DNA of 42,463 nucleotides from Promethearchaeia archaeon (lineage in GTDB: Archaea; Asgardarchaeota; Lokiarchaeia; Sigyniarchaeales; SOKP01), in NCBI GenBank assembly GCA_029856145.1, contig JAHQWK010000009.1:1-42463 (forward strand). Reading direction: 5' to 3'. Of this stretch, positions 2,009-42,463 are shown piece after piece. The number at the start of each line of letters is the position of its first letter. Positions within the stretch are counted from its first letter, which is position 1. The notes below the pieces were generated by a model. It had not been told where the DNA came from. It did no database searches and worked only from the letters and a program-made list of their open reading frames with translations. The position numbers and the translations under genes were made by a program.

Positions 2009-2035
2009 CACTATTAATTTATACAAAGGAAAATA

Positions 2036-2166
2036 CGCAACGGGAGGGATTTATTCTTATAAGAAGTATTTTCTTATATATTGAACCCCCGAGTGCATTC
2101 ACACACTGGCTTTCTGGGATGGCTTCCACTCCAAGCCAGCGCCGTACCGGGCTAGGCAACCGTTGC
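2036..2166 (-). tRNA. tRNA-Ser(GGA) with two introns (37/38: 2112-2128; T-loop 58/59: 2051-2080)
   Basis: Reverse complement folds: acceptor GCAACGG/CCGTTGC, discriminator G, anticodon stem CTGGC/GCCAG with TT-GGA, long variable arm, T-stem GGGGG/CCCTC; removing the two inserts restores 7-nt loops. Confidence 0.9.
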
Positions 2167-2214
2167 AAAAATGAAAAGAAGTAAAAAGATTATTTAGGAT
2201 TTTATACGTTTAAA

Positions 2215-10273: not shown

Positions 10274-10418
10274 TGTATATCAACTTCTTTTTTTTAAAAT
10301 TAACTAAAGTCTCATTTTTTTCTTCAATTATAAATATAACAGATTACACCAATAAAAAAATTTTTATCTTTTTTCTGATTTAATTAGTTTATAATAATTA
10401 AACATTTTCAATTTATTT

Positions 10419-10592
10419 GGGCCATTTGCTTAGCTCTCATCTGAAGTTTCTCTGGATGACTGAAATGGTTAACAGGTTTGCAAGCTTGGTCAACAAGCGC
10501 AGGTCTTATAAATGACCGTCGGACATACAGCAAATAAATTTGTCCGAGAAAGTAAAAGCCTGAGATCCGGGGTTCAAATCCCCGATGGCCCA
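10419..10592 (+). tRNA. tRNA with three introns (10436-10465, 10472-10494, ~10511-10556); probable tRNA-Ile(TAT)
   Basis: Acceptor GGGCCAT/ATGGCCC+A; T-arm CGGGG-TTCAAAT-CCCCG; spliced D-arm GCTT-AGCTTGGTTA-AAGC; anticodon stem CAGGT/GCCTG with loop CT-TAT-AA; TTTATAA box ~25-30 nt upstream. Anticodon identity is less certain than tRNA status. Confidence 0.82.
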
Positions 10593-10723
10593 TTTTAATT
10601 AGATTTTTAAACTAGTCACATCGATTTATGGTAAAAAGTTCGTGAAACATCTATTTTACGTTTTTTCATATATATCTCAAGAATATTTCTAGATATATTA
10701 GAAGAATACCTTAGAAATAAGTT

Positions 10724-12914: not shown

Positions 12915-13007
12915 TGGCGGCCCTCGAGGGGAATCGAACCCCTATCCCTCCGCAGGATAACTGGGTTTGAAGCCCAGTGTCAGAGACCACTCCAACCGTC
13001 AAGGGCC
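12915..13007 (-). tRNA. selC: tRNA-Sec(TCA), 9/4 fold, CCA encoded
   Basis: 9-bp acceptor GGCCCTTGA/TCGAGGGCC, 7-bp D-stem GTTGGAG/CTCTGAC, anticodon loop CT-TCA-AA, long variable arm, 4-bp T-stem GGGG/CCCC, G73-CCA. Confidence 0.96.
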
Positions 13008-30863: not shown

Positions 30864-31682
30864 TTATTTCTTTTCTGGTTCTTGTTCTTCATCTTCTTTA
30901 TCAGGAGTTAAAGAGATCTCGGAAATTTCTCCTTCATCTACCTCATCAATTAGTTTCTTATCATCTTTACTTAAAACTCCTTCTTCCTCTTCAAATACAT
31001 AATCTGCTCGTGTTTTTGCTAATTTTGCTTCCTCTTTTGCTTGAGCCTTTACTAGAAGATCATCCTTGATTTTAACACCATCTCCCATTTTTGTATTCGC
31101 ACGCATTATTTTCACAATTACTCCTAAAGTACCTGATTTCTGAATACATTGAGCAACACCTTTATCTACTCCTTCTTGGGCGGGTTGGCCACTCTTAGAC
31201 ATAACACCTGCACGAAAGATTTGAGTTCTTGCTCTTTGAGAAGTAACCTTTCCTGAGACGATAATCTCAACTCCACGTGCTCCTGCATCCATAACTTTTC
31301 TTAAAATATAATATCCTGCTCTTCTATAGTGGCGTCCCCTATCTAAACTATACGCCAATCTTTCTGCCATAATTTGAGCATCAAGGTCTGGCTCTGCAAC
31401 TTCTTCGACCTCAATCTGAGGCAATAGGCTTGAGATCTTAATTAGAACTCAATTTTCCAGCTCAAATTGTTCTTGAAGTACATCCGTTATCTCTTGAATA
31501 CGTTTACCACCTTTTCCAATTACCAAACCTGGGCGTGAAGTTCTTAATGTTATTCTTACTCCGAGTGGAGTACGTTGTAACTCTATTCCTGCAAATCCCG
31601 CACGAATTAATTCTGAGCGTAAGTATTCGTTTATTTGCATCAACTTAATCCCTTGTTCTATGAAATTTTTTACAAGCGGCAA
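30864..31682 (-). CDS. rps3: 30S ribosomal protein S3 (uS3), interrupted by a 30-nt insert (~31422-31451) containing an in-frame TGA
   Basis: 31449-31682 encodes the KH domain ('RPGLVIGKGG...FELEN'); 30864-31424 encodes 'PQIEVEEV..PDLDAQIMAERLA...GARGVEI'; both parts are in the same frame. Confidence 0.95.
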
Positions 31683-31835
31683 TTATGTCACCAATAGAAA
31701 ATTCTTATTGTTTATATACATATTATTTCTACTATTAACGTTTCTAACTTGATAAGTGTAGTAAGAAATTATAAAATTTTAAGTTTATTAAAAAGAGATA
31801 TAAATGTGCTAAGAAATAAAAGTGAAAAACTTAAA

Positions 31836-32297
31836 TTACAAGGAAAGGTCTTTTACTCCAATTTTCTTAAAAAGAGGGGCTAATAAATTCAGAATCTTCT
31901 GAAATTCTTTATCAATTATATTAATTTCTATTTCTCCCTCCCTTTCTATTGTAAAATTTGTAAGGTCAATCAATAATTTAAAATTCCTAACTAACTCTCT
32001 TTTCTCATCATTATCGATATAATCTCTATACTCTTTCAAATCGTTATGGAATACTGAATCTAATAATTTGCCATAATCAAACTCCATATGCCTATTACCA
32101 AGAAACTTGAGATTATTATCTAAGCTTTTTAATAGTTGAAGATAACTATTTATCAAAGCAAATTCTCTAAATTCTGGATTATCTGCGTTCTTCAACGAAA
32201 ACCTTAAAAGATTCAAAAGAATGTCATAGGTTTTTAAAATTCGCTTTGAAGCTAACATATCAATATGATAAAATAATTTTACTCTTAAATATTTCAC
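31836..32297 (-). CDS. Hypothetical helical protein; candidate immunity protein of the upstream giant protein
   Basis: 153 aa, starts 32 nt after the giant gene's stop on the same strand; function inferred from position only. Confidence 0.5.
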   Translation of the reverse strand: MKYLRVKLFYHIDMLASKRILKTYDILLNLLRFSLKNADNPEFREFALINSYLQLLKSLDNNLKFLGNRHMEFDYGKLLDSVFHNDLKEYRDYIDNDEKRELVRNFKLLIDLTNFTIEREGEIEINIIDKEFQKILNLLAPLFKKIGVKDLSL

Positions 32298-32329
32298 TAT
32301 TTTTTAGTAAATTTAGAATATAAAGAAGT

Positions 32330-35300
32330 TTAAATAAGGAAATTAGACCTTGCAAACCTTACTAACTCGTCCCAACTATACCCTGTATAAGAAGTCAAAA
32401 ATCTATTTGCGTTCCTTTTCAATGAGTCTATTGGGTAATAATAATCTTCATGCAATCCTAAATCAATAACAAGTTTACCCATATTGTAATAATGTCTACT
32501 GCTTCCTAGCTCATGGATGTGATTACGCAATAATTCAATAGCTAATTCAAAATAGTTTTTAACAGGAATATTAAGTGCTTGAAATTTTAAATCTTTAAAG
32601 GAAACTCCAATAAAAGATTGTATATAAAAACTCCCCCGGCTTCTAAGTGTGCTCTCTGAAATCCCGAAAATTCTAGAAAATTCCAGATCTATTGATAGCT
32701 GTGAGGCACTATATCGAGTATTACGACTATTTTGCCTAATCAAGTCAATTGCACGATTATATAGTTCTTGATTCGTAGGTTTAGGAAAGACACTTTCTAC
32801 AACTTCTTCTATACCTTTGTTGAAGACTTTTCTAAATACATTGGCAATGTAATCATTCCGCTTCTTTAAGTTATTTCCGTATTGAGGTCTGTCAAATCCT
32901 TGTAATCTCTCTCTTAATGATTTATAATCTTTTATACCTAATCTAATCTGTTCCAAGAAAATAGTCTTATATATTTCAAGCCTTAAATCTTCAAATGACA
33001 TACTCTCCTTATATACATCATGATAGAGGGTGAAAAGGATAGATCTAATCATACTCTCAGAAGATTCTATTAATTTATCTAATCCTAACTTTAATGAAAT
33101 TGCATTTATATCATAGCCTTTCCTAAATAAATATTCTATTCTTGACAGAAACGGCTTAAGAACTTCATTACTAAACATTTCAGCGATTTGTATTCTAGAA
33201 AAACTTTTACCTAATTCGTTTAATACAGGGAAATAATACTTATCCCTTAATTTTTTGAAACTTCCAAAATTATTATTGATTATTTCCCTTAAAGACTTCA
33301 TTTTTCCTTTATATCCTAAAGATTTCAATGATTCAAAGATTTGACTTATAGTAAAACCTACAGAAGCACTTTTGATAATGAAGGATAAAAGATAGTTTGA
33401 AGTCCAAGCCCCTGCTGATTTATCTTCTTTATTTAACCCAACACCTTTACTTCTTTGCAGATGAATTCTGTCAATTTCAGCTTTAGATAGAGTATCTTCA
33501 GAAAAGTATAATTTCTTAAGTACAAACTCAAAACGAGTATCGATAGCAGTGTAAATTGCTCTCCAGTCTAACCTACGATAATCTACTCTCCCATTAGGCT
33601 TATATGAAATCAATCCTAAACTATCCAAGTGCTGACGAATTAACCCACGAATTGTTATTCCGCCTCCGTTTGGACCTCCACTCTTTATTTTATTAAAGTC
33701 CTCTATACTTAAGGAATGTAAAGCGTTATAATCCAAAAATTCATGAGAGTCTTTATAATAGAGATTTCGACCTTTAATTATTTTACGATTATATTGATTC
33801 TTTCTAATTGGGTGAGAAGTTCTTGACTTGCCAGACATTGTTAGCCCCGAAACCTTGTCTACCCATTCATAAAGGAACCCCCACCACTGATATTTTCGCT
33901 TCCCTTCAACACTAAGAATCTGAATTGTTTTTACTTTATCCAATATTTCTAAATCTACTTCATATTTAAGTATATCGTGATGCAGTCTGTCGTAGCCTAA
34001 TTCTCTTCTATTCTCATTTATTTCATTAAGATTTTTGGAAATTACTTTACTAGCAACTTTAGTAAGTCTTAATAATTGAGTTCTCTGGATACCATGGAAC
34101 ATTCTTAAATCTAAAAATAAATCTAGTGTCTCTTGCCAAGAATCTAATGTACCTAAAGACTTATAATTAAATTTTGACTTTGGATTAGTGTTAACCATTC
34201 CAATCGTTATAGGTGCAGCGGACAAGAATGGGGCAATAGCAGGAAATATGAAACCTATTACTCCAACGCCTATCGCTACGGCTGCTGTCATTAACCCTTT
34301 CTTATGGTCTCTCATCCAACTCACAAGTCTGTTTGTGTCACTCCTTGCGGCGTAAGTAGCTTCAGTAAATGCACGGGCGGTAGGAAGCGGCTTTTGAGAT
34401 TCTTGGAGTCTACTTGCCTGATATTGTAAATTATTAATGAAGTTAGTCATAGAGTGTCTTTGATTATCAGAAATCATAGATTGTGGGGCATTCATAATCC
34501 CTGCTTTCTGATGTCTTGATTCTAAAATACCTTTAACGGCATCCTTCAATTCAAATAGACTGTCAGCTGAATCACCGCCGACAATCATAAGATTTCCAAT
34601 AGTCATGCCGATTGACCCACCGAAACCACCCATTATAGCACCAATAAACATCATCACCGTGAAGAAGCTGTCAAGGATATAATCTTTCCGATTATCTTTT
34701 TGAATTTGAGCTTCTTGTGCTTGTTGCCTCATCTCATTCATCTGCTCTATGGTTAGTTGCTGCTGAGCAGCTATATTCTGAAGGTTCAGCGAAGTCTGGG
34801 GCCTCACACTTGCCCACATAAACTGAGTGACTGCGCTGAAAAGGAACTCACGCCCGGTCTCAGCAAGCCCACTGAGGTATATTTGTGCTGTCTCGTCCCA
34901 ACCAAGATCTGCTACCGCGTTGGTAACGTAGGCTTCAATCCAAGGGTCAACAAATACTTCTTGAATACTTTCAGAAATCAGCGCTTTCGTGATTTTAAAC
35001 ATGTTATATCCAAGACCTCTAGATGCGGGATTAAGAAGACTATTAAATAATTCTCCTGCATTCATATTATTATAAAGATTAGCTAGCCTTTTTCCAGCAG
35101 TCTCTGCTTGAATAGCATCATCTAGCTTATCAAATAGATTATTAGCTAATTTACTAAATGCTTTGTCAATTACAATCGTAGCGCCCATTACAATAAGAGT
35201 ACTAATAATAGTGACAAATATGGTGTAGCAAGCCTCGGAAAGTCTCTGTTGAGTCTGCTCCGCAATCATAAATTGATATGTGTATTCTAAGATCGCCTGA

Positions 35301-38300
35301 TGGGCAGATTGCATTGTAGCAATTGTATTAGCTTCTTCTAGTGTGATGTCGTCTCGCTCCACCGAAATATCCCTATATTTTTCTATGCAAAATTCGAGAA
35401 TAATATGACCTTCATACCCCTCAACATTGTTATATAGATCTTCCTTGCTAGCAAGACATTCATCTAAAAGTATTGTAAAACTAGAATTTAAAATTACTTC
35501 TCCTGTAATCGCATTAAAAATAAATTCCGGAATATAGTCAATGTCCAAAAGTGGAAGCTGATTTCCCAGTGAATCTACATAATAAGGCACGATATTCACG
35601 ATATCTGACATAATTAAGCGATTTGCCACAGTATCCTCGGGGATTAACTGTATGATATCTGTAGTGCCATTATAGACTTTGTAGATGTGATAATACTTAT
35701 CTTCTAAGTCCCCATATTCTTCGTGATCTACATAAATAGGATAGTCAAGGTAAAACTCTGGAGCTAAAACTGTATCAGAATCGATAAACTGTAATGAGGG
35801 TCTCACGCCAACCATGTATGGAATAAGGCGATCATATGAAATACTGTCTTCAGGATCGCTTTCAGTTGCCTTATAAATCTCATTTTCTAAGTACATAATG
35901 GAATTTTTCATGTAAAGAGCACGTGGATCACGGGGTTGAGTGAGACCTAAGTTATCTAATATTGGAAGTTGCTCAATAGATATTCCATAAAATTCCTCAA
36001 TATCTTGATTGAAGAATGACATCAACAGGGAATCATCAAAATCCGAATATTGCAGATAAGATCGTGTCTGCTGTGAATAATCTAATAATAGTGGGTTAAA
36101 TTGAGTGCCGAAAACGGTCGTCTTCTCGATATGAGCAGGGGCAAGAATAACCTCTCCCTCATATATATGTTTATCCGTCTCAGCTTTTACGGGAGTATAG
36201 ACTCCTGCTTTACTTCCTTGAAGTGTATTTGGCATGATATCGCCAAAATATCTATCCATCCACCACTTATCTGATAATGTTTCGATGTCTTGATATTCCT
36301 CGTTATAAGTGGTCTGAGAAGCTAAATAATTGTTGATCTCTTGTTGTTGGGCAATTGCCATAGCAGAGTTTAAAAGCCAATACATAATCATACCGACAAT
36401 AAAACCAATTGCAGTCCCGAAACCTGGCAACGCCGAGCCTATTGAAGTACATGCTCCTATTATACCAGCCAAGACTATTCCCGTGACCTTTCCAACTACA
36501 AAAGCCGTTAATTGTGAAACTACTTGCCATGCGATATCTCCAATGATTTTCTCAGCAGAAAGAGATTCTATAAATATTTGATGCGTAAGCCGCATTGCAA
36601 ACCTAATTAAATCACTGGACGTCCCTGTATATTGTGATTTCCAGATGTCAAATAAAGAATCTCTGAATGTAGGCTCTACAAACATGCCATCATAACTGTC
36701 AGTATCTTGATAATTAATTAATTTATGACCGGTATATTTTAATGCCATTTTCAAAGCTATGTCATCATCTGCGGTAGCCGCACTTGTAATAATATGTTTC
36801 TCCGTAATCATGACCTTATGAGGCTCAAAATAGGAGTTTCCGTCATAATCAAACCCGATTCCGACCACTTCACCATCAGAGTCGGCAATAAAGATCGTAC
36901 TGTGAATACCATCGCCATCTTCATCATAATAAAGATATCTATACCCTTCAAGGTTATCTGGAGCATACCCTCGGACGTTATCATAATATACTCCCGTTTC
37001 TGGAACCACCTCGATAACATCAGCGACAATCTTTTGCTCAGTTAAATAATCATTGATCCCTGTACCTTCATTATAAGTTGCAGGTATTGAAATAACTTTC
37101 TGAGTTGCTAAAATATTATCAAACTGAACAGAACCGTTAATTATAATTCTTCTATCAAATATAGCTGGAATTCCATCTCTAGGATGAGAAAGGGATAAAA
37201 GATTCTCAAGAGCAGGGACGTAGGTAATAACATCATTGGAACTATCCTCATCTCCATTATCATTTATAACTGGCACAAGATTATTGTCTAAGTTATATAC
37301 TTCCGATAGCTCATTTGGAAATACATCATCATAATATCTGGTGCTTACAACCTCGCCATACTCGAAATCTCTGAACGCATAGGACATACTTGAATCAGAA
37401 ATAATATATGTAGAATTCCTATATTCTGTTAAATATCCCTCATAATGATCAAGATCATCATTCAAGGGTGTGAAATGAATATGGGTAATTTCTGTGGAGT
37501 AAAGAACTGTATATGAGCTGTAAAAGGTCTGTTCATAAGATATTTCATGATCAATATATCCATCATAATCATCATCTTTCTGAATTAAAGTGATTAACTT
37601 TTGTATTCTATAAGTTATTGTACTGTTAGTGATGATAGTACGTTGTGCTGTCACTTTATAATCGGGATCTTTACTATCAATAGAGTATCTTTCAGTCTTT
37701 CTTACATCATTTACTTTATCAGTATGAACTTCTGTAGTTGCTACTTCTTGGACAAGCGTATGGAACGTAATTTCTCCCGCTGGGTTGATGTAGCCATACT
37801 TGAAAGAATCATAGACTCCATTCTGGGTTATATCATCTTTCTGGATAACGAGCTCATGGCTACAATCCTCATCATAATCAAAGAGTTCCAGTACTGTCTT
37901 TGGATCATTAACTTTTGTGAAATTATCGAAATCTTGATACTGTTCCATCTTATCTAATGAATAGGTCAGATCAACATTATCATCATCTACAAACTTACTA
38001 TTTCTCGTGTAAGTAAAATATTCAAACATAGAATCTTCAGAACCGACCGCATAATCTTCCATAAGGAGGAAGTAATCAATATCATTATATTCAAAGTCTA
38101 CATAGAGCGAATCATTCTTGGTCCATAATGGAACTTCAGGATTATTATTAATTGCTGCTTGTAAAAATCTAAATTGGGTATAATCTGAATATGCCCCTTC
38201 TGTGAAGTTAAGATAAACAATAATCTTCTCAAAATTATCTAATGTGTATCCATCTGGAGCTGAAATTTCGATTAATTTTTCACTTGAGTATATATTTGCA

Positions 38301-41300
38301 TTATCTGGATCAAAATCTTTCCCAGTTTCGTTGAAAAAGTACCCTTTAATCAGCATAATATCGAGGTCTTGGGCGTTAGAGTAGTCCTGTGATAAGGTGA
38401 AATTTGCAGTTTGAATATTTTTATCATATGGATATACAATCTCAACAGCTATATTTCTGGCTTCAAATTCACTAAGCGTCTGGTTATAATATACAGAATC
38501 GTACTCCTCTGAGGCATCGTCATACCACTCAAACATAATATCTAAGGTGCTGATATCAACATTTGGAGCTTCTATGGTGTGCCATTCTTTCCACGCGTTC
38601 TTATCTGCCCATGAAACGTAAAGATAGCTGAAGTTCGCAATATGGGGGTGATAATAGTCGTATAGATCAGTAAGGTCTTCTTTGTCCTCCGTATAGGCGT
38701 CATAATACTCTCCTGAATACATTAGGTTCCAAATAATATCATAAATTCCGGATGAAGTATTTATCGCAAAAAGATGAGAATCAAAATAATAATAATTGCC
38801 ATCATCATCAAATGCGTCAAAATACCACGTTTCATTAATATTAAACTTATCACTATATAGTGGCAAGAATTCAGTTGCATCTAAAGTTCTTACTTCGCTA
38901 TAAATATCAGTATAATCACCATAATAGAAAGTCTTAATATGATTATTTGGATAAATATCAAAAATCTCTGAATCGTACAATGTTGCATTATAATCAAATT
39001 CAAAAATAAAGAATGAATCAACAACTATTTGGTATCGTGGATCATTTGAAGTAATTAATATATCCGTAATATAACAATGTTCTATATTATTACTGTCTAA
39101 TATTTTGAAATCAGAATAGATATCATCAAAAGAAATATTAAATACTCTCTGTTGATAAGTATTATAAAATTCGCTTTCGAATGGTGTCAAGTCTAATTGA
39201 GTCTCCCATGCTACTAATTCTTCTCGGTTTGCATACATATCCTCCTCTATGGTATAGGAATTACCATCGGTATTAATTCCAATAAGTGAAATCTCGGCAA
39301 TCGGAACATCTGGCTGTCCAGTAAGATAATTATCAATATAAGGCGCTCTCTGAAGTACCATCTCATCGACAGTAAATCCAATCGCAGATTCCAATGTAGC
39401 ATTATATTTTAGATATAAGATATCGCCATCTTTCATGACCATTAGATTTCCATTAGGATCGATATAAGATCTTGGAAGGGAAATATTATTATACTCAACT
39501 GAATATGTCCTTCTATTATCATAAATCTCAAAAGATTGCCTTCGTGTATCTACTTCTGTAATCTCATATATGGGTTCATATAACTCATTCAGAACGATAA
39601 CACTCTGATTATCTGAAAAGATTCTTCTAATTAAATCAACATTGAGATATCCCCCCTCAGCATAGGCAGAGTCCCATTCAATAGTCTGAGTCGTTGGAAG
39701 TCCCTCTCCGTAAAAGTCTCCCAGAAAGTCGGTGTGATTGTTAAATATTGGAGTAAATACGATATGAGCATTATTGGCAATGGTAAATTGATCCCAATCA
39801 TTTGAATCAGGAAGTGAAATATACATTGTGCCTGAGTCATCCTCAAACATATCCAGTGTAACATTGGTAGATCCAATGAAAGTATCCTGATTGTAGTAGA
39901 GACTGACATTAAGATAGGAAAGTACATCAGGATTGAGGAAACCCATTTTCATGATCAACGTATCATATGATTGCCATCCGCTGGTTGCGTCATTAAGATC
40001 CTCAGTTATATAATAAATTAAGCTATTCGAATTATTTAATATCGCAAATATTTGCTGTACCTTGCCTTTGCTGAGAGCTTTATACGGATCAATATCATAA
40101 ATAAAGTGCGAAGATTCATAATTTGCCATTAAAGTATCTTCTGGAGATTGAGCAGTCGTCCAATTCAGAAGTGTTATATTGTTATTACCTAAGTCCACCC
40201 TTAGATCGTGGTAATATTGATATTTATTATGGAGATCGGCAAAAAGATCAACGAATAACTTTGTTCCGTGAACAATGTCATCATATGAAGAGATATCCAC
40301 CTTCAATTCCTTATCCTCAAAATCAATATGTTCATCAAGAATATACTCTCTTTCATCCGAACTATTATAGAAGAAGGCTACCACTATAGGAGTATTATCT
40401 GGATAGCTTTCTGGAGAATTTCTCTCTAAATTAAATTCAGCAATATCAGGAGTATCATCGGTCGTGTCCACTTCAAATTCAAATGAAAGAATGCTCTTTT
40501 CTTGCAACCTATAGTTTAATGCTAACTGATATTGATAATTCGCAGATAAGTTGTAATATAGAGGTGCTAAAATACTTGCCCCGCTGAAAGGGTAATAATT
40601 ATTGTAAAATTGCATGTGATATGGCTGTACTTCAATAAATACATGCTTGGTGTCAAGTAAACCGCCGATTGTTTTAAATTGGTAGGTAATAGAAAAATTA
40701 TCCCCGATACTTAAAGATTTATATATCGCGTCCGTGAACGTAATATTATTACCCTTAATGGAAGAAATATTACCAATGGTATTAATTATATCATTAGTAG
40801 CATTTTTTATGATCAATTCATATCCAGGACCATACAAAATATTATCATATTTCGTATAATAGCTTACACTTTCTTTATTGTAATAGTATGTGACTAATAC
40901 TTCTGAATCTTCTATAATATCAATATAATTTTCAAACCATTCATAAGACAGGTAGAAGGTAAAAATTGGGTCATTAGGATAGTTAGTATCATGTTGCCAC
41001 GCTTTAAAGTAGTTATTATCTAAATATCTTTCTCCTGCTTCAGTCTGAACAGTCATACCAAATGGTTCAACATCCCCCCATCTCTCTTGAAATTCTCCGC
41101 CATAAGTCAAATTAAGCGATACTTCATATTGGTCGTCATCAAATCCTGTAAACTCAAATGTAGTAAAGTTATATTCATTTGGATAGAATTGAAATTCTTC
41201 TGTATAGGTTGATTTAAAGTCGTCAACTGAAGCATACTCGCTCAAGTGAGCAAATGATACATTAAACGCAGCAGAACTTGTCAAATCAGGGTGATATTCG

Positions 41301-42463
41301 AATTGGTGCCAATTGAGATAAGAAGCATCTGGGAAGTTCCAATGAAGCTCTACATTATAAGTATTTGCCCCTTCTTCTATTGTATAATCGAGATCGGTAA
41401 ACTCATAATCAATATGGAAATCAATTTGGATAATATCACTTGAAAGTAGGGAAATAATATCATCTTTTATTTCATAGAAATTAATTTGATTACCTTCCAC
41501 TTCATAATGAGTTCCTTTAGCAAGTTTTATTGAGGAAGGATTGTAATTAATTGCATTATCAGGATTATAAGTACTATAATTATCTTCGGTTAACGCATAT
41601 CCTTGCCATGACTCAACCCAATCCCAGGGTTTACTCACCCTATCAACATTAGATACTGTTATGGAATTAATTCTACTTGTGGCATTTGGTATAACAACTG
41701 CAAACTCCACACCAGCAGGAAGTCCTGTAGTAATAATATCTTCTGAGTCGGTTAAATCAATTCTATGATGTAAGTACAGTTCTCCCTCTACATATGCCCC
41801 TTGGCTTGTGATTGGTAATTCAGTTAGTTTGAAATTTTCAGTATTATACAAATGAGCATTAAAAGAATCTACATCAACAGAATAATCATTATACTGCCAA
41901 TTCATATCATATTCTACATCAGATTCATAGACTTCTCCGTATGGATATGTACCCTTTCCTCCATAGAGGTTAATTTCCCCTTCAATATATTCTGGAAATT
42001 CTAAATCATAGGCATCTAAGTGAAATCCGAGGGAATCTACCAACCTATTATCTGCTGAAGCTAATGATTGGAAGCTGTACTCATTATTATCAACAGGAGC
42101 AAATACTAAGTTATCATTCTCATCTCGACATAATTGTACTAACTCACCGTAATCACTAAACCCTTCGACCGCAAGTGTTAGCCATGCATCATCATAGACT
42201 CCATATGCTTTATTTAGATTATCAGTAAAAATTTGTATATAATGAGTGTGAATGGCCTTATTAACATCTAATTCACCTTGCTTATTGTTCATTGGCTTGG
42301 ATACTGCTTGAAGAATTCTATCATCGGCAGTAAGTTCAAATGTATCAAAAAGGATATATTGAAGTGGATATGGGTTTTCTCCATAACTGAGAAAATCAAT
42401 TTCAAGATCTATTGTTGTATAACCCTTTACGGCATAGATAGGTTGTAAGCTAACTTCAAAGTC
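32330..42463 (-). CDS. Giant protein (at least 3377 aa, 5' truncated by window): acidic beta-rich body, DxDxDG loops, hydrophobic helices, C-terminal GIY-YIG-like nuclease/HTH region
   Basis: Frame stays open for 57 more codons upstream of the listed ATG (42292) to the window edge; motifs as described under findings. Confidence 0.85.
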   Translation of the reverse strand, partial: DFEVSLQPIYAVKGYTTIDLEIDFLSYGENPYPLQYILFDTFELTADDRILQAVSKPMNNKQGELDVNKAIHTHYIQIFTDNLNKAYGVYDDAWLTLAVEGFSDYGELVQLCRDENDNLVFAPVDNNEYSFQSLASADNRLVDSLGFHLDAYDLEFPEYIEGEINLYGGKGTYPYGEVYESDVEYDMNWQYNDYSVDVDSFNAHLYNTENFKLTELPITSQGAYVEGELYLHHRIDLTDSEDIITTGLPAGVEFAVVIPNATSRINSITVSNVDRVSKPWDWVESWQGYALTEDNYSTYNPDNAINYNPSSIKLAKGTHYEVEGNQINFYEIKDDIISLLSSDIIQIDFHIDYEFTDLDYTIEEGANTYNVELHWNFPDASYLNWHQFEYHPDLTSSAAFNVSFAHLSEYASVDDFKSTYTEEFQFYPNEYNFTTFEFTGFDDDQYEVSLNLTYGGEFQERWGDVEPFGMTVQTEAGERYLDNNYFKAWQHDTNYPNDPIFTFYLSYEWFENYIDIIEDSEVLVTYYYNKESVSYYTKYDNILYGPGYELIIKNATNDIINTIGNISSIKGNNITFTDAIYKSLSIGDNFSITYQFKTIGGLLDTKHVFIEVQPYHMQFYNNYYPFSGASILAPLYYNLSANYQYQLALNYRLQEKSILSFEFEVDTTDDTPDIAEFNLERNSPESYPDNTPIVVAFFYNSSDEREYILDEHIDFEDKELKVDISSYDDIVHGTKLFVDLFADLHNKYQYYHDLRVDLGNNNITLLNWTTAQSPEDTLMANYESSHFIYDIDPYKALSKGKVQQIFAILNNSNSLIYYITEDLNDATSGWQSYDTLIMKMGFLNPDVLSYLNVSLYYNQDTFIGSTNVTLDMFEDDSGTMYISLPDSNDWDQFTIANNAHIVFTPIFNNHTDFLGDFYGEGLPTTQTIEWDSAYAEGGYLNVDLIRRIFSDNQSVIVLNELYEPIYEITEVDTRRQSFEIYDNRRTYSVEYNNISLPRSYIDPNGNLMVMKDGDILYLKYNATLESAIGFTVDEMVLQRAPYIDNYLTGQPDVPIAEISLIGINTDGNSYTIEEDMYANREELVAWETQLDLTPFESEFYNTYQQRVFNISFDDIYSDFKILDSNNIEHCYITDILITSNDPRYQIVVDSFFIFEFDYNATLYDSEIFDIYPNNHIKTFYYGDYTDIYSEVRTLDATEFLPLYSDKFNINETWYFDAFDDDGNYYYFDSHLFAINTSSGIYDIIWNLMYSGEYYDAYTEDKEDLTDLYDYYHPHIANFSYLYVSWADKNAWKEWHTIEAPNVDISTLDIMFEWYDDASEEYDSVYYNQTLSEFEARNIAVEIVYPYDKNIQTANFTLSQDYSNAQDLDIMLIKGYFFNETGKDFDPDNANIYSSEKLIEISAPDGYTLDNFEKIIVYLNFTEGAYSDYTQFRFLQAAINNNPEVPLWTKNDSLYVDFEYNDIDYFLLMEDYAVGSEDSMFEYFTYTRNSKFVDDDNVDLTYSLDKMEQYQDFDNFTKVNDPKTVLELFDYDEDCSHELVIQKDDITQNGVYDSFKYGYINPAGEITFHTLVQEVATTEVHTDKVNDVRKTERYSIDSKDPDYKVTAQRTIITNSTITYRIQKLITLIQKDDDYDGYIDHEISYEQTFYSSYTVLYSTEITHIHFTPLNDDLDHYEGYLTEYRNSTYIISDSSMSYAFRDFEYGEVVSTRYYDDVFPNELSEVYNLDNNLVPVINDNGDEDSSNDVITYVPALENLLSLSHPRDGIPAIFDRRIIINGSVQFDNILATQKVISIPATYNEGTGINDYLTEQKIVADVIEVVPETGVYYDNVRGYAPDNLEGYRYLYYDEDGDGIHSTIFIADSDGEVVGIGFDYDGNSYFEPHKVMITEKHIITSAATADDDIALKMALKYTGHKLINYQDTDSYDGMFVEPTFRDSLFDIWKSQYTGTSSDLIRFAMRLTHQIFIESLSAEKIIGDIAWQVVSQLTAFVVGKVTGIVLAGIIGACTSIGSALPGFGTAIGFIVGMIMYWLLNSAMAIAQQQEINNYLASQTTYNEEYQDIETLSDKWWMDRYFGDIMPNTLQGSKAGVYTPVKAETDKHIYEGEVILAPAHIEKTTVFGTQFNPLLLDYSQQTRSYLQYSDFDDSLLMSFFNQDIEEFYGISIEQLPILDNLGLTQPRDPRALYMKNSIMYLENEIYKATESDPEDSISYDRLIPYMVGVRPSLQFIDSDTVLAPEFYLDYPIYVDHEEYGDLEDKYYHIYKVYNGTTDIIQLIPEDTVANRLIMSDIVNIVPYYVDSLGNQLPLLDIDYIPEFIFNAITGEVILNSSFTILLDECLASKEDLYNNVEGYEGHIILEFCIEKYRDISVERDDITLEEANTIATMQSAHQAILEYTYQFMIAEQTQQRLSEACYTIFVTIISTLIVMGATIVIDKAFSKLANNLFDKLDDAIQAETAGKRLANLYNNMNAGELFNSLLNPASRGLGYNMFKITKALISESIQEVFVDPWIEAYVTNAVADLGWDETAQIYLSGLAETGREFLFSAVTQFMWASVRPQTSLNLQNIAAQQQLTIEQMNEMRQQAQEAQIQKDNRKDYILDSFFTVMMFIGAIMGGFGGSIGMTIGNLMIVGGDSADSLFELKDAVKGILESRHQKAGIMNAPQSMISDNQRHSMTNFINNLQYQASRLQESQKPLPTARAFTEATYAARSDTNRLVSWMRDHKKGLMTAAVAIGVGVIGFIFPAIAPFLSAAPITIGMVNTNPKSKFNYKSLGTLDSWQETLDLFLDLRMFHGIQRTQLLRLTKVASKVISKNLNEINENRRELGYDRLHHDILKYEVDLEILDKVKTIQILSVEGKRKYQWWGFLYEWVDKVSGLTMSGKSRTSHPIRKNQYNRKIIKGRNLYYKDSHEFLDYNALHSLSIEDFNKIKSGGPNGGGITIRGLIRQHLDSLGLISYKPNGRVDYRRLDWRAIYTAIDTRFEFVLKKLYFSEDTLSKAEIDRIHLQRSKGVGLNKEDKSAGAWTSNYLLSFIIKSASVGFTISQIFESLKSLGYKGKMKSLREIINNNFGSFKKLRDKYYFPVLNELGKSFSRIQIAEMFSNEVLKPFLSRIEYLFRKGYDINAISLKLGLDKLIESSESMIRSILFTLYHDVYKESMSFEDLRLEIYKTIFLEQIRLGIKDYKSLRERLQGFDRPQYGNNLKKRNDYIANVFRKVFNKGIEEVVESVFPKPTNQELYNRAIDLIRQNSRNTRYSASQLSIDLEFSRIFGISESTLRSRGSFYIQSFIGVSFKDLKFQALNIPVKNYFELAIELLRNHIHELGSSRHYYNMGKLVIDLGLHEDYYYPIDSLKRNANRFLTSYTGYSWDELVRFARSNFLI

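What the first reader, a model, noticed from the sequence alone, without database searches (positions are those of the whole stretch)
31410..31465. Essential rps3 gene interrupted by a 30-nt hairpin insert with an in-frame stop: candidate tRNA-type (BHB) intron in an mRNA
Seen: the mRNA reads ...GAG CTG GAA AAT [TGA GTT CTA ATT AAG ATC TCA AGC CTA TTG] CCT CAG ATT GAG. Removing exactly 30 nt restores the usual archaeal S3 junction (LExPQIEVEEV) with no residue lost. The insert folds as TTGAG-T-TCT-(AATTA)-AGA-T-CTCAA, and the flanks can pair (TTGAG/CTCAG). A relaxed bulge-helix-bulge can be drawn (bulges AA|A and AT|T around an imperfect TGGA/GCCT helix); cutting it removes 30 nt in frame and gives E-M-P-Q. 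The size matches the tRNA introns in this window (17-46 nt, two of them 30 nt). Established: archaeal EndA/RtcB splice BHB introns, and mRNA introns of this type are rare, best known from crenarchaeal cbf5. Inference: either mRNA splicing of a ribosomal protein gene in an Asgard archaeon, possibly regulatory, or a clean split into KH and C-terminal polypeptides (the insert starts with a stop and ends with a TTG start), or UGA readthrough. A single sequencing error cannot make a structured 30-nt insert.
Basis: partly seen in the sequence, partly recalled or inferred. Interest (0 to 1): 0.92.

Follow-up and report, generated by a model that had tools for sequence, protein, structure and literature searches.

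The report
tRNA-type intron in Asgard uS3 gene
The only gene for ribosomal protein uS3 in this Asgard archaeon is broken by a 30-base hairpin that very probably has to be cut out of the messenger RNA by the tRNA-splicing enzyme, a kind of splicing that I found published inside an archaeal coding sequence for just one other gene, and relatives suggest that such introns move between lineages on exchanged DNA patches.

Summary
The single rps3 of this Lokiarchaeia-type genome carries a 30-nt insert (31424-31453, minus) with an in-frame TGA. A 97.6%-identical natural allele lacks exactly these bases, and the junction equals the bulge-helix-bulge (BHB) cut (E-M-P-Q). Identical inserts occur in other assemblies, so it is no artefact. 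Thirteen distinct inserts (30-31 nt) sit at this site across the family; sequence diverges, pairing is kept by compensatory changes (0/500 shuffles), and exon codons are constrained. Two more BHB intron sites exist in rps3 of relatives, often frameshifting. Split-gene and readthrough readings fail. An (alpha-beta)2 EndA and RtcB are present, and histone, aIF2-gamma and pyrG carry similar inserts. The central helix is relaxed, not canonical. New here: intron-bearing alleles are mosaics and mostly follow a replacement promoter/leader beside foreign genes, suggesting lateral spread. The scan noted such introns before in other Asgard genes; I found no paper.

The parts
31454..31682 (-). rps3 (uS3) exon 1: TTG start, 76 codons plus 1 nt, most of the KH domain
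31424..31453 (-). 30-nt BHB intron (site B, phase 1, inside the Met77 codon): 1 bulge nt, 9-bp stem, 5-nt loop, 4-nt central-helix strand, 2 bulge nt
30864..31423 (-). rps3 exon 2: end of KH domain, S3 C-terminal domain, acidic tail
31449..31451 (-). in-frame TGA that ends the unspliced reading after 77 codons
31460..31469 (-). outer exon-exon helix, 5' arm (pairs with 31412-31422)
31456..31459 (-). central helix, exon strand UGGA (pairs with 31426-31429: U.U, G-C, G-C, A.G)
31453..31455 (-). 5' bulge AA|A; predicted cut between 31454 and 31453
31430..31452 (-). intron hairpin: arms 31444-31452 and 31430-31438, loop 31439-31443
31426..31429 (-). central helix, intron strand GCCU
31423..31425 (-). 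3' bulge AU|U; predicted cut between 31424 and 31423
31412..31422 (-). outer exon-exon helix, 3' arm
31688..31692 (-). Shine-Dalgarno-like GGTGA of the alternative leader shared by most intron-bearing alleles
31774..31794 (-). conserved AT-rich promoter-like motif of the alternative leader (function inferred)
31836..32297 (-). 153-aa orphan ORF standing where rpl22 normally is; its homologues next to rps3 mark intron-bearing alleles
32330..42463 (-). giant ORF (at least 3377 codons, open at the contig end), part of the foreign block upstream of rps3

Best explanation
It is an endonuclease-type (BHB) intron in the rps3 mRNA. The transcript folds exon 1 against exon 2 and the insert into a hairpin, leaving two 3-nt A/U-rich bulges four positions apart. 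The (alpha-beta)2 splicing endonuclease cuts after the second base of each bulge and RtcB joins GAA-A to UG-CCU, restoring E-M-P-Q and a 262-aa uS3. Unspliced message stops after 77 codons. Shown: insert, boundaries, conserved pairing, enzymes present. Inferred: cleavage and ligation in the cell. More tentative: the intron is a tolerated passenger that is gained and lost by recombination of 100-250 nt DNA patches, often together with a replacement promoter and leader.
For: Exact 30-nt gap against a 97.6%-identical allele and 85 L-E-M-P relatives. Twelve 30-nt inserts of one architecture with mean 38% identity in the variable part; 91% of cells paired, 8 of 9 stem pairs with double changes, 0/500 shuffles, slid controls 23-58%. 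Exon Leu wobble base covaries with its intron partner: G-C 7, A-U 3, G-U 2, never A-C. BHB-compatible codons in 12/12 intron-bearing vs 3/78 intronless genes. Sites A (8 genes) and 0 (4 genes) are also BHB-shaped, many 31 nt. EndA alpha keeps the Tyr/His/Lys triad and the loop lysine equivalent to A. pernix K44, needed for relaxed substrates; beta paralogue and RtcB present. Same 30-nt design in tRNA introns and in pyrG, aIF2-gamma and histone genes of this genome.
Against: Central helix is only 2/4 Watson-Crick here and its A.G position is unpaired in 12/12. The last intron base plus TG always makes TTG or ATG, so a restart is formally possible. Statistics are across related genomes and partly post hoc.
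Confidence: 0.92

Rival explanations
1. Split gene: translation stops at the TGA and restarts at TTG 31424, giving two polypeptides that assemble in the ribosome.
For: TTG or ATG lies at the 3' junction in all 12; gene callers report the two ORFs.
Against: The break is inside the KH domain (profile position 62 of 78). No SD before the TTG. Stops fall at different codons, giving unrelated tails. Eight carriers also have an insert in the GxxG loop, mostly frameshifting, which a split cannot rescue. It does not explain exon-intron covariation. The TG is simply the remainder of the Met codon.
Confidence: 0.04
2. UGA readthrough or selenocysteine insertion gives uS3 with 10 extra residues.
For: The stop here is UGA, the insert is in frame, a hairpin follows, and tRNA-Sec lies in the window.
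Against: Most relatives have UAA or UAG, some two stops; the Loki's Castle allele is 31 nt and shifts frame.
Confidence: 0.01
3. The insert is removed, but not by EndA/RtcB (DNA-level excision, ribosomal bypass or another nuclease).
For: The central helix is imperfect.
Against: Junctions match the cut-after-second-bulge-base rule at three sites in rps3 and in other genes; site 0 has a perfect 4-bp helix.
Confidence: 0.02
4. Assembly artefact or dead gene.
For: Draft metagenome-assembled genome; raw reads not inspected.
Against: Identical insert in 10 other assemblies, 13 distinct versions, no second rps3, rest of the gene intact and 97.6% identical to an intact allele.
Confidence: 0.01

Closest known systems
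cbf5 pre-mRNA intron of Desulfurococcales and Sulfolobales (Yokobori 2009, PMC2738675)
   Same: Short (16-44 nt there) intron inside a coding sequence, relaxed BHB, cut between bulge residues 2 and 3, hetero-oligomeric EndA, lost in some lineages.
   Different: Other phylum and gene; one site in one gene there, three sites in rps3 and many genes here; splicing shown by cDNA there, not here; distribution here is far patchier (9+ changes on the tree) with mosaic alleles.
BHB intron in the 5' UTR of Haloferax HVO_1309 (Schwarz 2020, PMC7714728)
   Same: mRNA substrate of the splicing endonuclease.
   Different: Untranslated region; no reading frame depends on it.
Asgard tRNA introns (Valentin-Alvarado 2024, PMC11291895; Goswami 2026, 10.64898/2026.10.13.758758)
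   Same: Same group of organisms, BHB boundaries, repeated gains, (alpha-beta)2 EndA; tRNA introns of this genome share the 30-nt design.
   Different: Those papers cover tRNA genes only (no mention of mRNA in the 2026 preprint) and found no general route of arrival.
Intron gain with mobile-element integration at Caldiarchaeum tRNA-Thr (Sugahara 2012, PMC3293823)
   Same: A 5' gene fragment left upstream, foreign DNA between, and a downstream copy with more introns; seen here in G021 and G107.
   Different: tRNA gene with a recombinase-coding element; here a protein gene, and no integrase or resolvase was found in this genome.

Membership tests
Archaeal BHB (EndA/RtcB) intron | Two 3-nt bulges on opposite strands, four positions apart | tested here: met
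   Geometry holds in all 12 aligned alleles
Archaeal BHB (EndA/RtcB) intron | Cut after the second base of each bulge gives the exon junction | tested here: met
   Equals the gap against intronless alleles
Archaeal BHB (EndA/RtcB) intron | Flanking exon-exon and intron helices; structure kept while sequence changes | tested here: met
   Outer helix 98% and inner helix 96% of cells paired; covariation 0/500 shuffles
Archaeal BHB (EndA/RtcB) intron | Splicing endonuclease able to cut relaxed motifs, and ligase, in the genome | tested here: met
   Two EndA paralogues, triad and K44-equivalent in one; intact RtcB
Archaeal BHB (EndA/RtcB) intron | Cleavage and ligation of the RNA | not testable with these tools
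Canonical (strict) BHB motif | Fully paired 4-bp central helix | tested here: not met
   2/4 here, 3/4 in 8 of 12; A.G in all. It is a relaxed motif; site 0 in relatives is strict
cbf5-type coding-sequence intron | Short, ORF-less, breaks a needed reading frame, relaxed BHB | tested here: met
   30 nt with stop in the single rps3
cbf5-type coding-sequence intron | Located in cbf5 of Crenarchaeota | tested here: not met
   Gene is rps3; relatives are Promethearchaeota/Lokiarchaeia
Spliceosomal intron | GT...AG ends | tested here: not met
   Ends are AT...AT
Group I or II intron | Ribozyme core of hundreds of bases | tested here: not met
   30 nt; no Rfam intron match in window 1-32400
Selenocysteine recoding | Conserved in-frame UGA at a Cys/Sec position | tested here: not met
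   Stops vary in type and position

The most novel reading that the evidence does not exclude
Lokiarchaeia carry a genome-wide class of about 30-nt BHB mRNA introns, and the rps3 introns spread laterally: foreign DNA landing at the rps3 start supplies a replacement promoter and 5' gene part bearing up to three introns, which then pass between lineages by homologous recombination. This would be a first visible route of arrival for archaeal endonuclease-type introns in protein genes.
Probability: 0.35. Interest if true: 0.92.

Novelty: new variant of a known kind. Interest (0 to 1): 0.82.

Why it matters
If true, ribosome production in these closest prokaryotic relatives of eukaryotes depends on mRNA splicing by the tRNA machinery, which papers I could search report in an archaeal coding sequence only for cbf5. 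It gives a precise, cheap test (one RT-PCR junction) and a natural pair of alleles with and without the intron. It means databases mis-call such genes as fragments: uS3 is a common marker, and a Loki's Castle metagenome entry (KKN44047.1) is one such fragment. The mosaic alleles speak to how BHB introns arrive, which a 2026 preprint calls the central open problem.

Tried and rejected
De novo BHB scans of the genome, alone or for introns shared with G005, were dominated by noise and give no count. No tyrosine integrase, resolvase or reverse transcriptase found in this genome with PF00589, PF16795, PF00239, PF00078, so 'integrative element' is unproven. The 153-aa ORF has no Pfam, Atlas or viral-contig relative. 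One IMG/VR contig ending in an intronless rps3 piece (L358) is a GC-rich phage contig joined abruptly to it, probably chimeric; not used. No phage match to the intron. An alternative register pairing exon GGCU with intron AGCY was considered and dropped: two mismatches in 12 and no 3-nt bulges. Whole-gene transfer among carriers was rejected: their third positions outside site B are no more alike than background. Several relatives have withheld bases over rps3 and were left unscored. Literature searches found no report of Asgard mRNA introns; most subscription journals are not covered.

Full report
Observation. On the minus strand rps3 begins at TTG 31682 and meets an in-frame TGA at 31449-31451; the frame resumes 30 nt after the break. 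It is the only rps3 in a 97%-complete genome. The region folds into a 9-10 bp exon-exon helix enclosing a 9-bp hairpin. The closest named relatives are Promethearchaeota / Lokiarchaeia genomes.

Boundaries. Several 30-nt deletions keep the frame, but relatives pick one. Of 96 intronless genes, 85 read L-E-M-P with GAR ATG CCN. A contig from another assembly (L334) is 767/786 identical over the coding sequence and lacks exactly 31424-31453. That is the segment removed by cutting after the second base of the bulges AA|A and AU|U, the rule for BHB introns (PMC2738675).

Not an artefact. The truncated N-terminal product is on record on 24 contigs read, and 10 of 10 inspected carry the identical insert. 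Nine species genomes of the family, out of 129 with a match (some partial or masked), and three metagenome contigs carry a 30-nt insert at the same bond. A Loki's Castle allele has 31 nt.

Structure, not sequence, is conserved. All 12 aligned inserts have 1 nt, a 9-bp stem, a 5-nt loop, 4 nt and 2 nt, with mean identity of 38% in the variable part. On the gap-free alignment 91% of cells pair, 8 of 9 stem pairs show double changes, no shuffle of 500 reaches the score, and slid registers give 23-58%. The wobble base of the exon Leu codon covaries with its intron partner (G-C 7, A-U 3, G-U 2). Four synonymous exon positions needed for pairing are all present in 12/12 carriers against 3/78 intronless genes (features picked after seeing the set, and kin are not independent, but carriers need at least 8-9 changes on the tree). 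The weak point: the central helix is U.U, G-C, G-C, A.G here, and the A.G is unpaired in all 12, so the motif is relaxed.

More introns in the same gene. Eight carriers have a second insert (30-31 nt) in the KH GxxG loop. Four genes have a third after codon 8 with a perfect 4-bp central helix; G107 has all three. The 31-nt ones shift frame, so these genes cannot work without precise removal.

Rivals. Pfam KH_2 covers residues 17-89 of the intact protein, so the break at codon 77 is inside the domain. Every aligned carrier has a stop, but of different type and position; with the 31-nt allele this excludes readthrough and selenocysteine, although tRNA-Sec is nearby.

Machinery. The genome has two EndA paralogues and an intact RtcB. 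The 198-aa one is closest to Aeropyrum EndA alpha and aligns with Y125, H133, K164, R157, W183 and K44, the loop lysine that gives broad specificity (PMC3241643).

Genome context. Against 2.41 Mb of relative G005 (1.85 Mb of this genome aligned), the frame-breaking inserts inside well-conserved coding sequence were 29-30 nt and BHB-shaped: rps3, a histone, the aIF2-gamma P-loop and the pyrG glycine motif here, one hypothetical gene in G005; a few other broken hits lay at gene starts and scored lower. tRNA introns of the genome share the 30-nt design. Inserts noted by the scan in uL11 and mevalonate kinase are present and shared with G005. The scan has reported the same kind in other Asgard genomes; those are unchecked notes, not support.

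How the intron is distributed. Carriers are scattered. Several have 3' halves 97-100% identical to an intronless allele but only 76-80% over nt 150-250, which span sites A and B; intronless control pairs stay at 89-95% (partners were chosen on the 3' half, which biases this somewhat). So the intron region is exchanged as a patch; direction is not settled. Eleven of 13 carriers have an SD-like leader, nearly all with a non-ATG start, against 16 of 129 intronless genes, and 8 of 13 against 5 of 129 share an upstream promoter-like motif. In this genome rpl22 lies on another contig, followed by the ordinary rps3 leader that stops dead at the start codon and then by genes not aligned in G005. The 153-aa ORF upstream of rps3 has neighbours-of-rps3 homologues in 3 of 135 genomes and 2 metagenome loci, all carriers. 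G107 and G021 keep intronless 5' remnants of rps3 after rpl22 that end a few bases past site 0 and site A. This resembles the tRNA case of PMC3293823, but no recombinase was found, and in this genome the gene differs from L334 mainly in the first 10 codons, so a rearrangement unrelated to intron gain remains possible.

Comparison and verdict. Published archaeal mRNA substrates that I found are the cbf5 intron and one Haloferax 5' UTR; the Asgard papers treat tRNA only. This works like the cbf5 intron and meets every testable feature of a relaxed BHB intron, but it is a different gene, phylum and scale. Splicing is inferred (0.92), not shown. Novelty: new variant of a known kind. Interest 0.82.

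Noticed in passing
G000 C1:34460-34488 (+): Histone gene with a 29-nt insert; the gap against G005 is 29 nt and BHB-shaped, which contradicts the scan note reading it as a 23-nt GT-AG intron.
   Followed up: yes
G000 C5:34200 (+) and C23:64787 (-): 30-nt BHB-shaped inserts with stops in the aIF2-gamma P-loop and the pyrG glycine motif; both absent in G005. Inserts often fall in glycine-rich motifs.
   Followed up: partly
G000 C28 near 14775, C3 near 203041, C10 near 33370, C32 near 34917: Further BHB-shaped inserts (uL11 28 nt and mevalonate kinase, both shared with G005; NifU-like; a small gene) seen while checking scan notes.
   Followed up: partly
G000 C31:14087-14116 (+): 30-nt BHB-shaped insert in an unannotated stretch whose flanks are 97-100% identical to G005; no Rfam match. 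Possibly an unknown non-coding RNA with an intron.
   Followed up: partly
L020, L293, L066, L116 (5' end of rps3): Third rps3 intron site after codon 8 with a perfect central helix; G107 has three introns in one gene.
   Followed up: yes
window 31836-42463 and G000 C14:1-14529: rpl22 and rps3 are separated by foreign genes (giant ORF with paralogues on C28 and C9, 153-aa orphan; on C14 an 1189-aa phosphoesterase-like ORF and others). Remnants of the same block lie before rps3 in G074 and G107.
   Followed up: partly
L345:1386-1420 (Loki's Castle metagenome, KKN44047.1): 31-nt site-B intron; the database entry is the 63-aa fragment.
   Followed up: yes
window 2019-2168 and 10408-10593: Intron-containing tRNA genes missed by ARAGORN and Rfam; tRNA-Sec at 12915-13007 has no intron.
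   Followed up: partly
L126:295-870 (G097) and G006 C64:8460-8879: Second, divergent rps3-like copies in two relatives.
   Followed up: no
rps3 starts across loci: SD-led rps3 alleles start at TTG, GTG, CTG, ATC, ATT, TTA or GTT, pointing to relaxed start-codon use.
   Followed up: no
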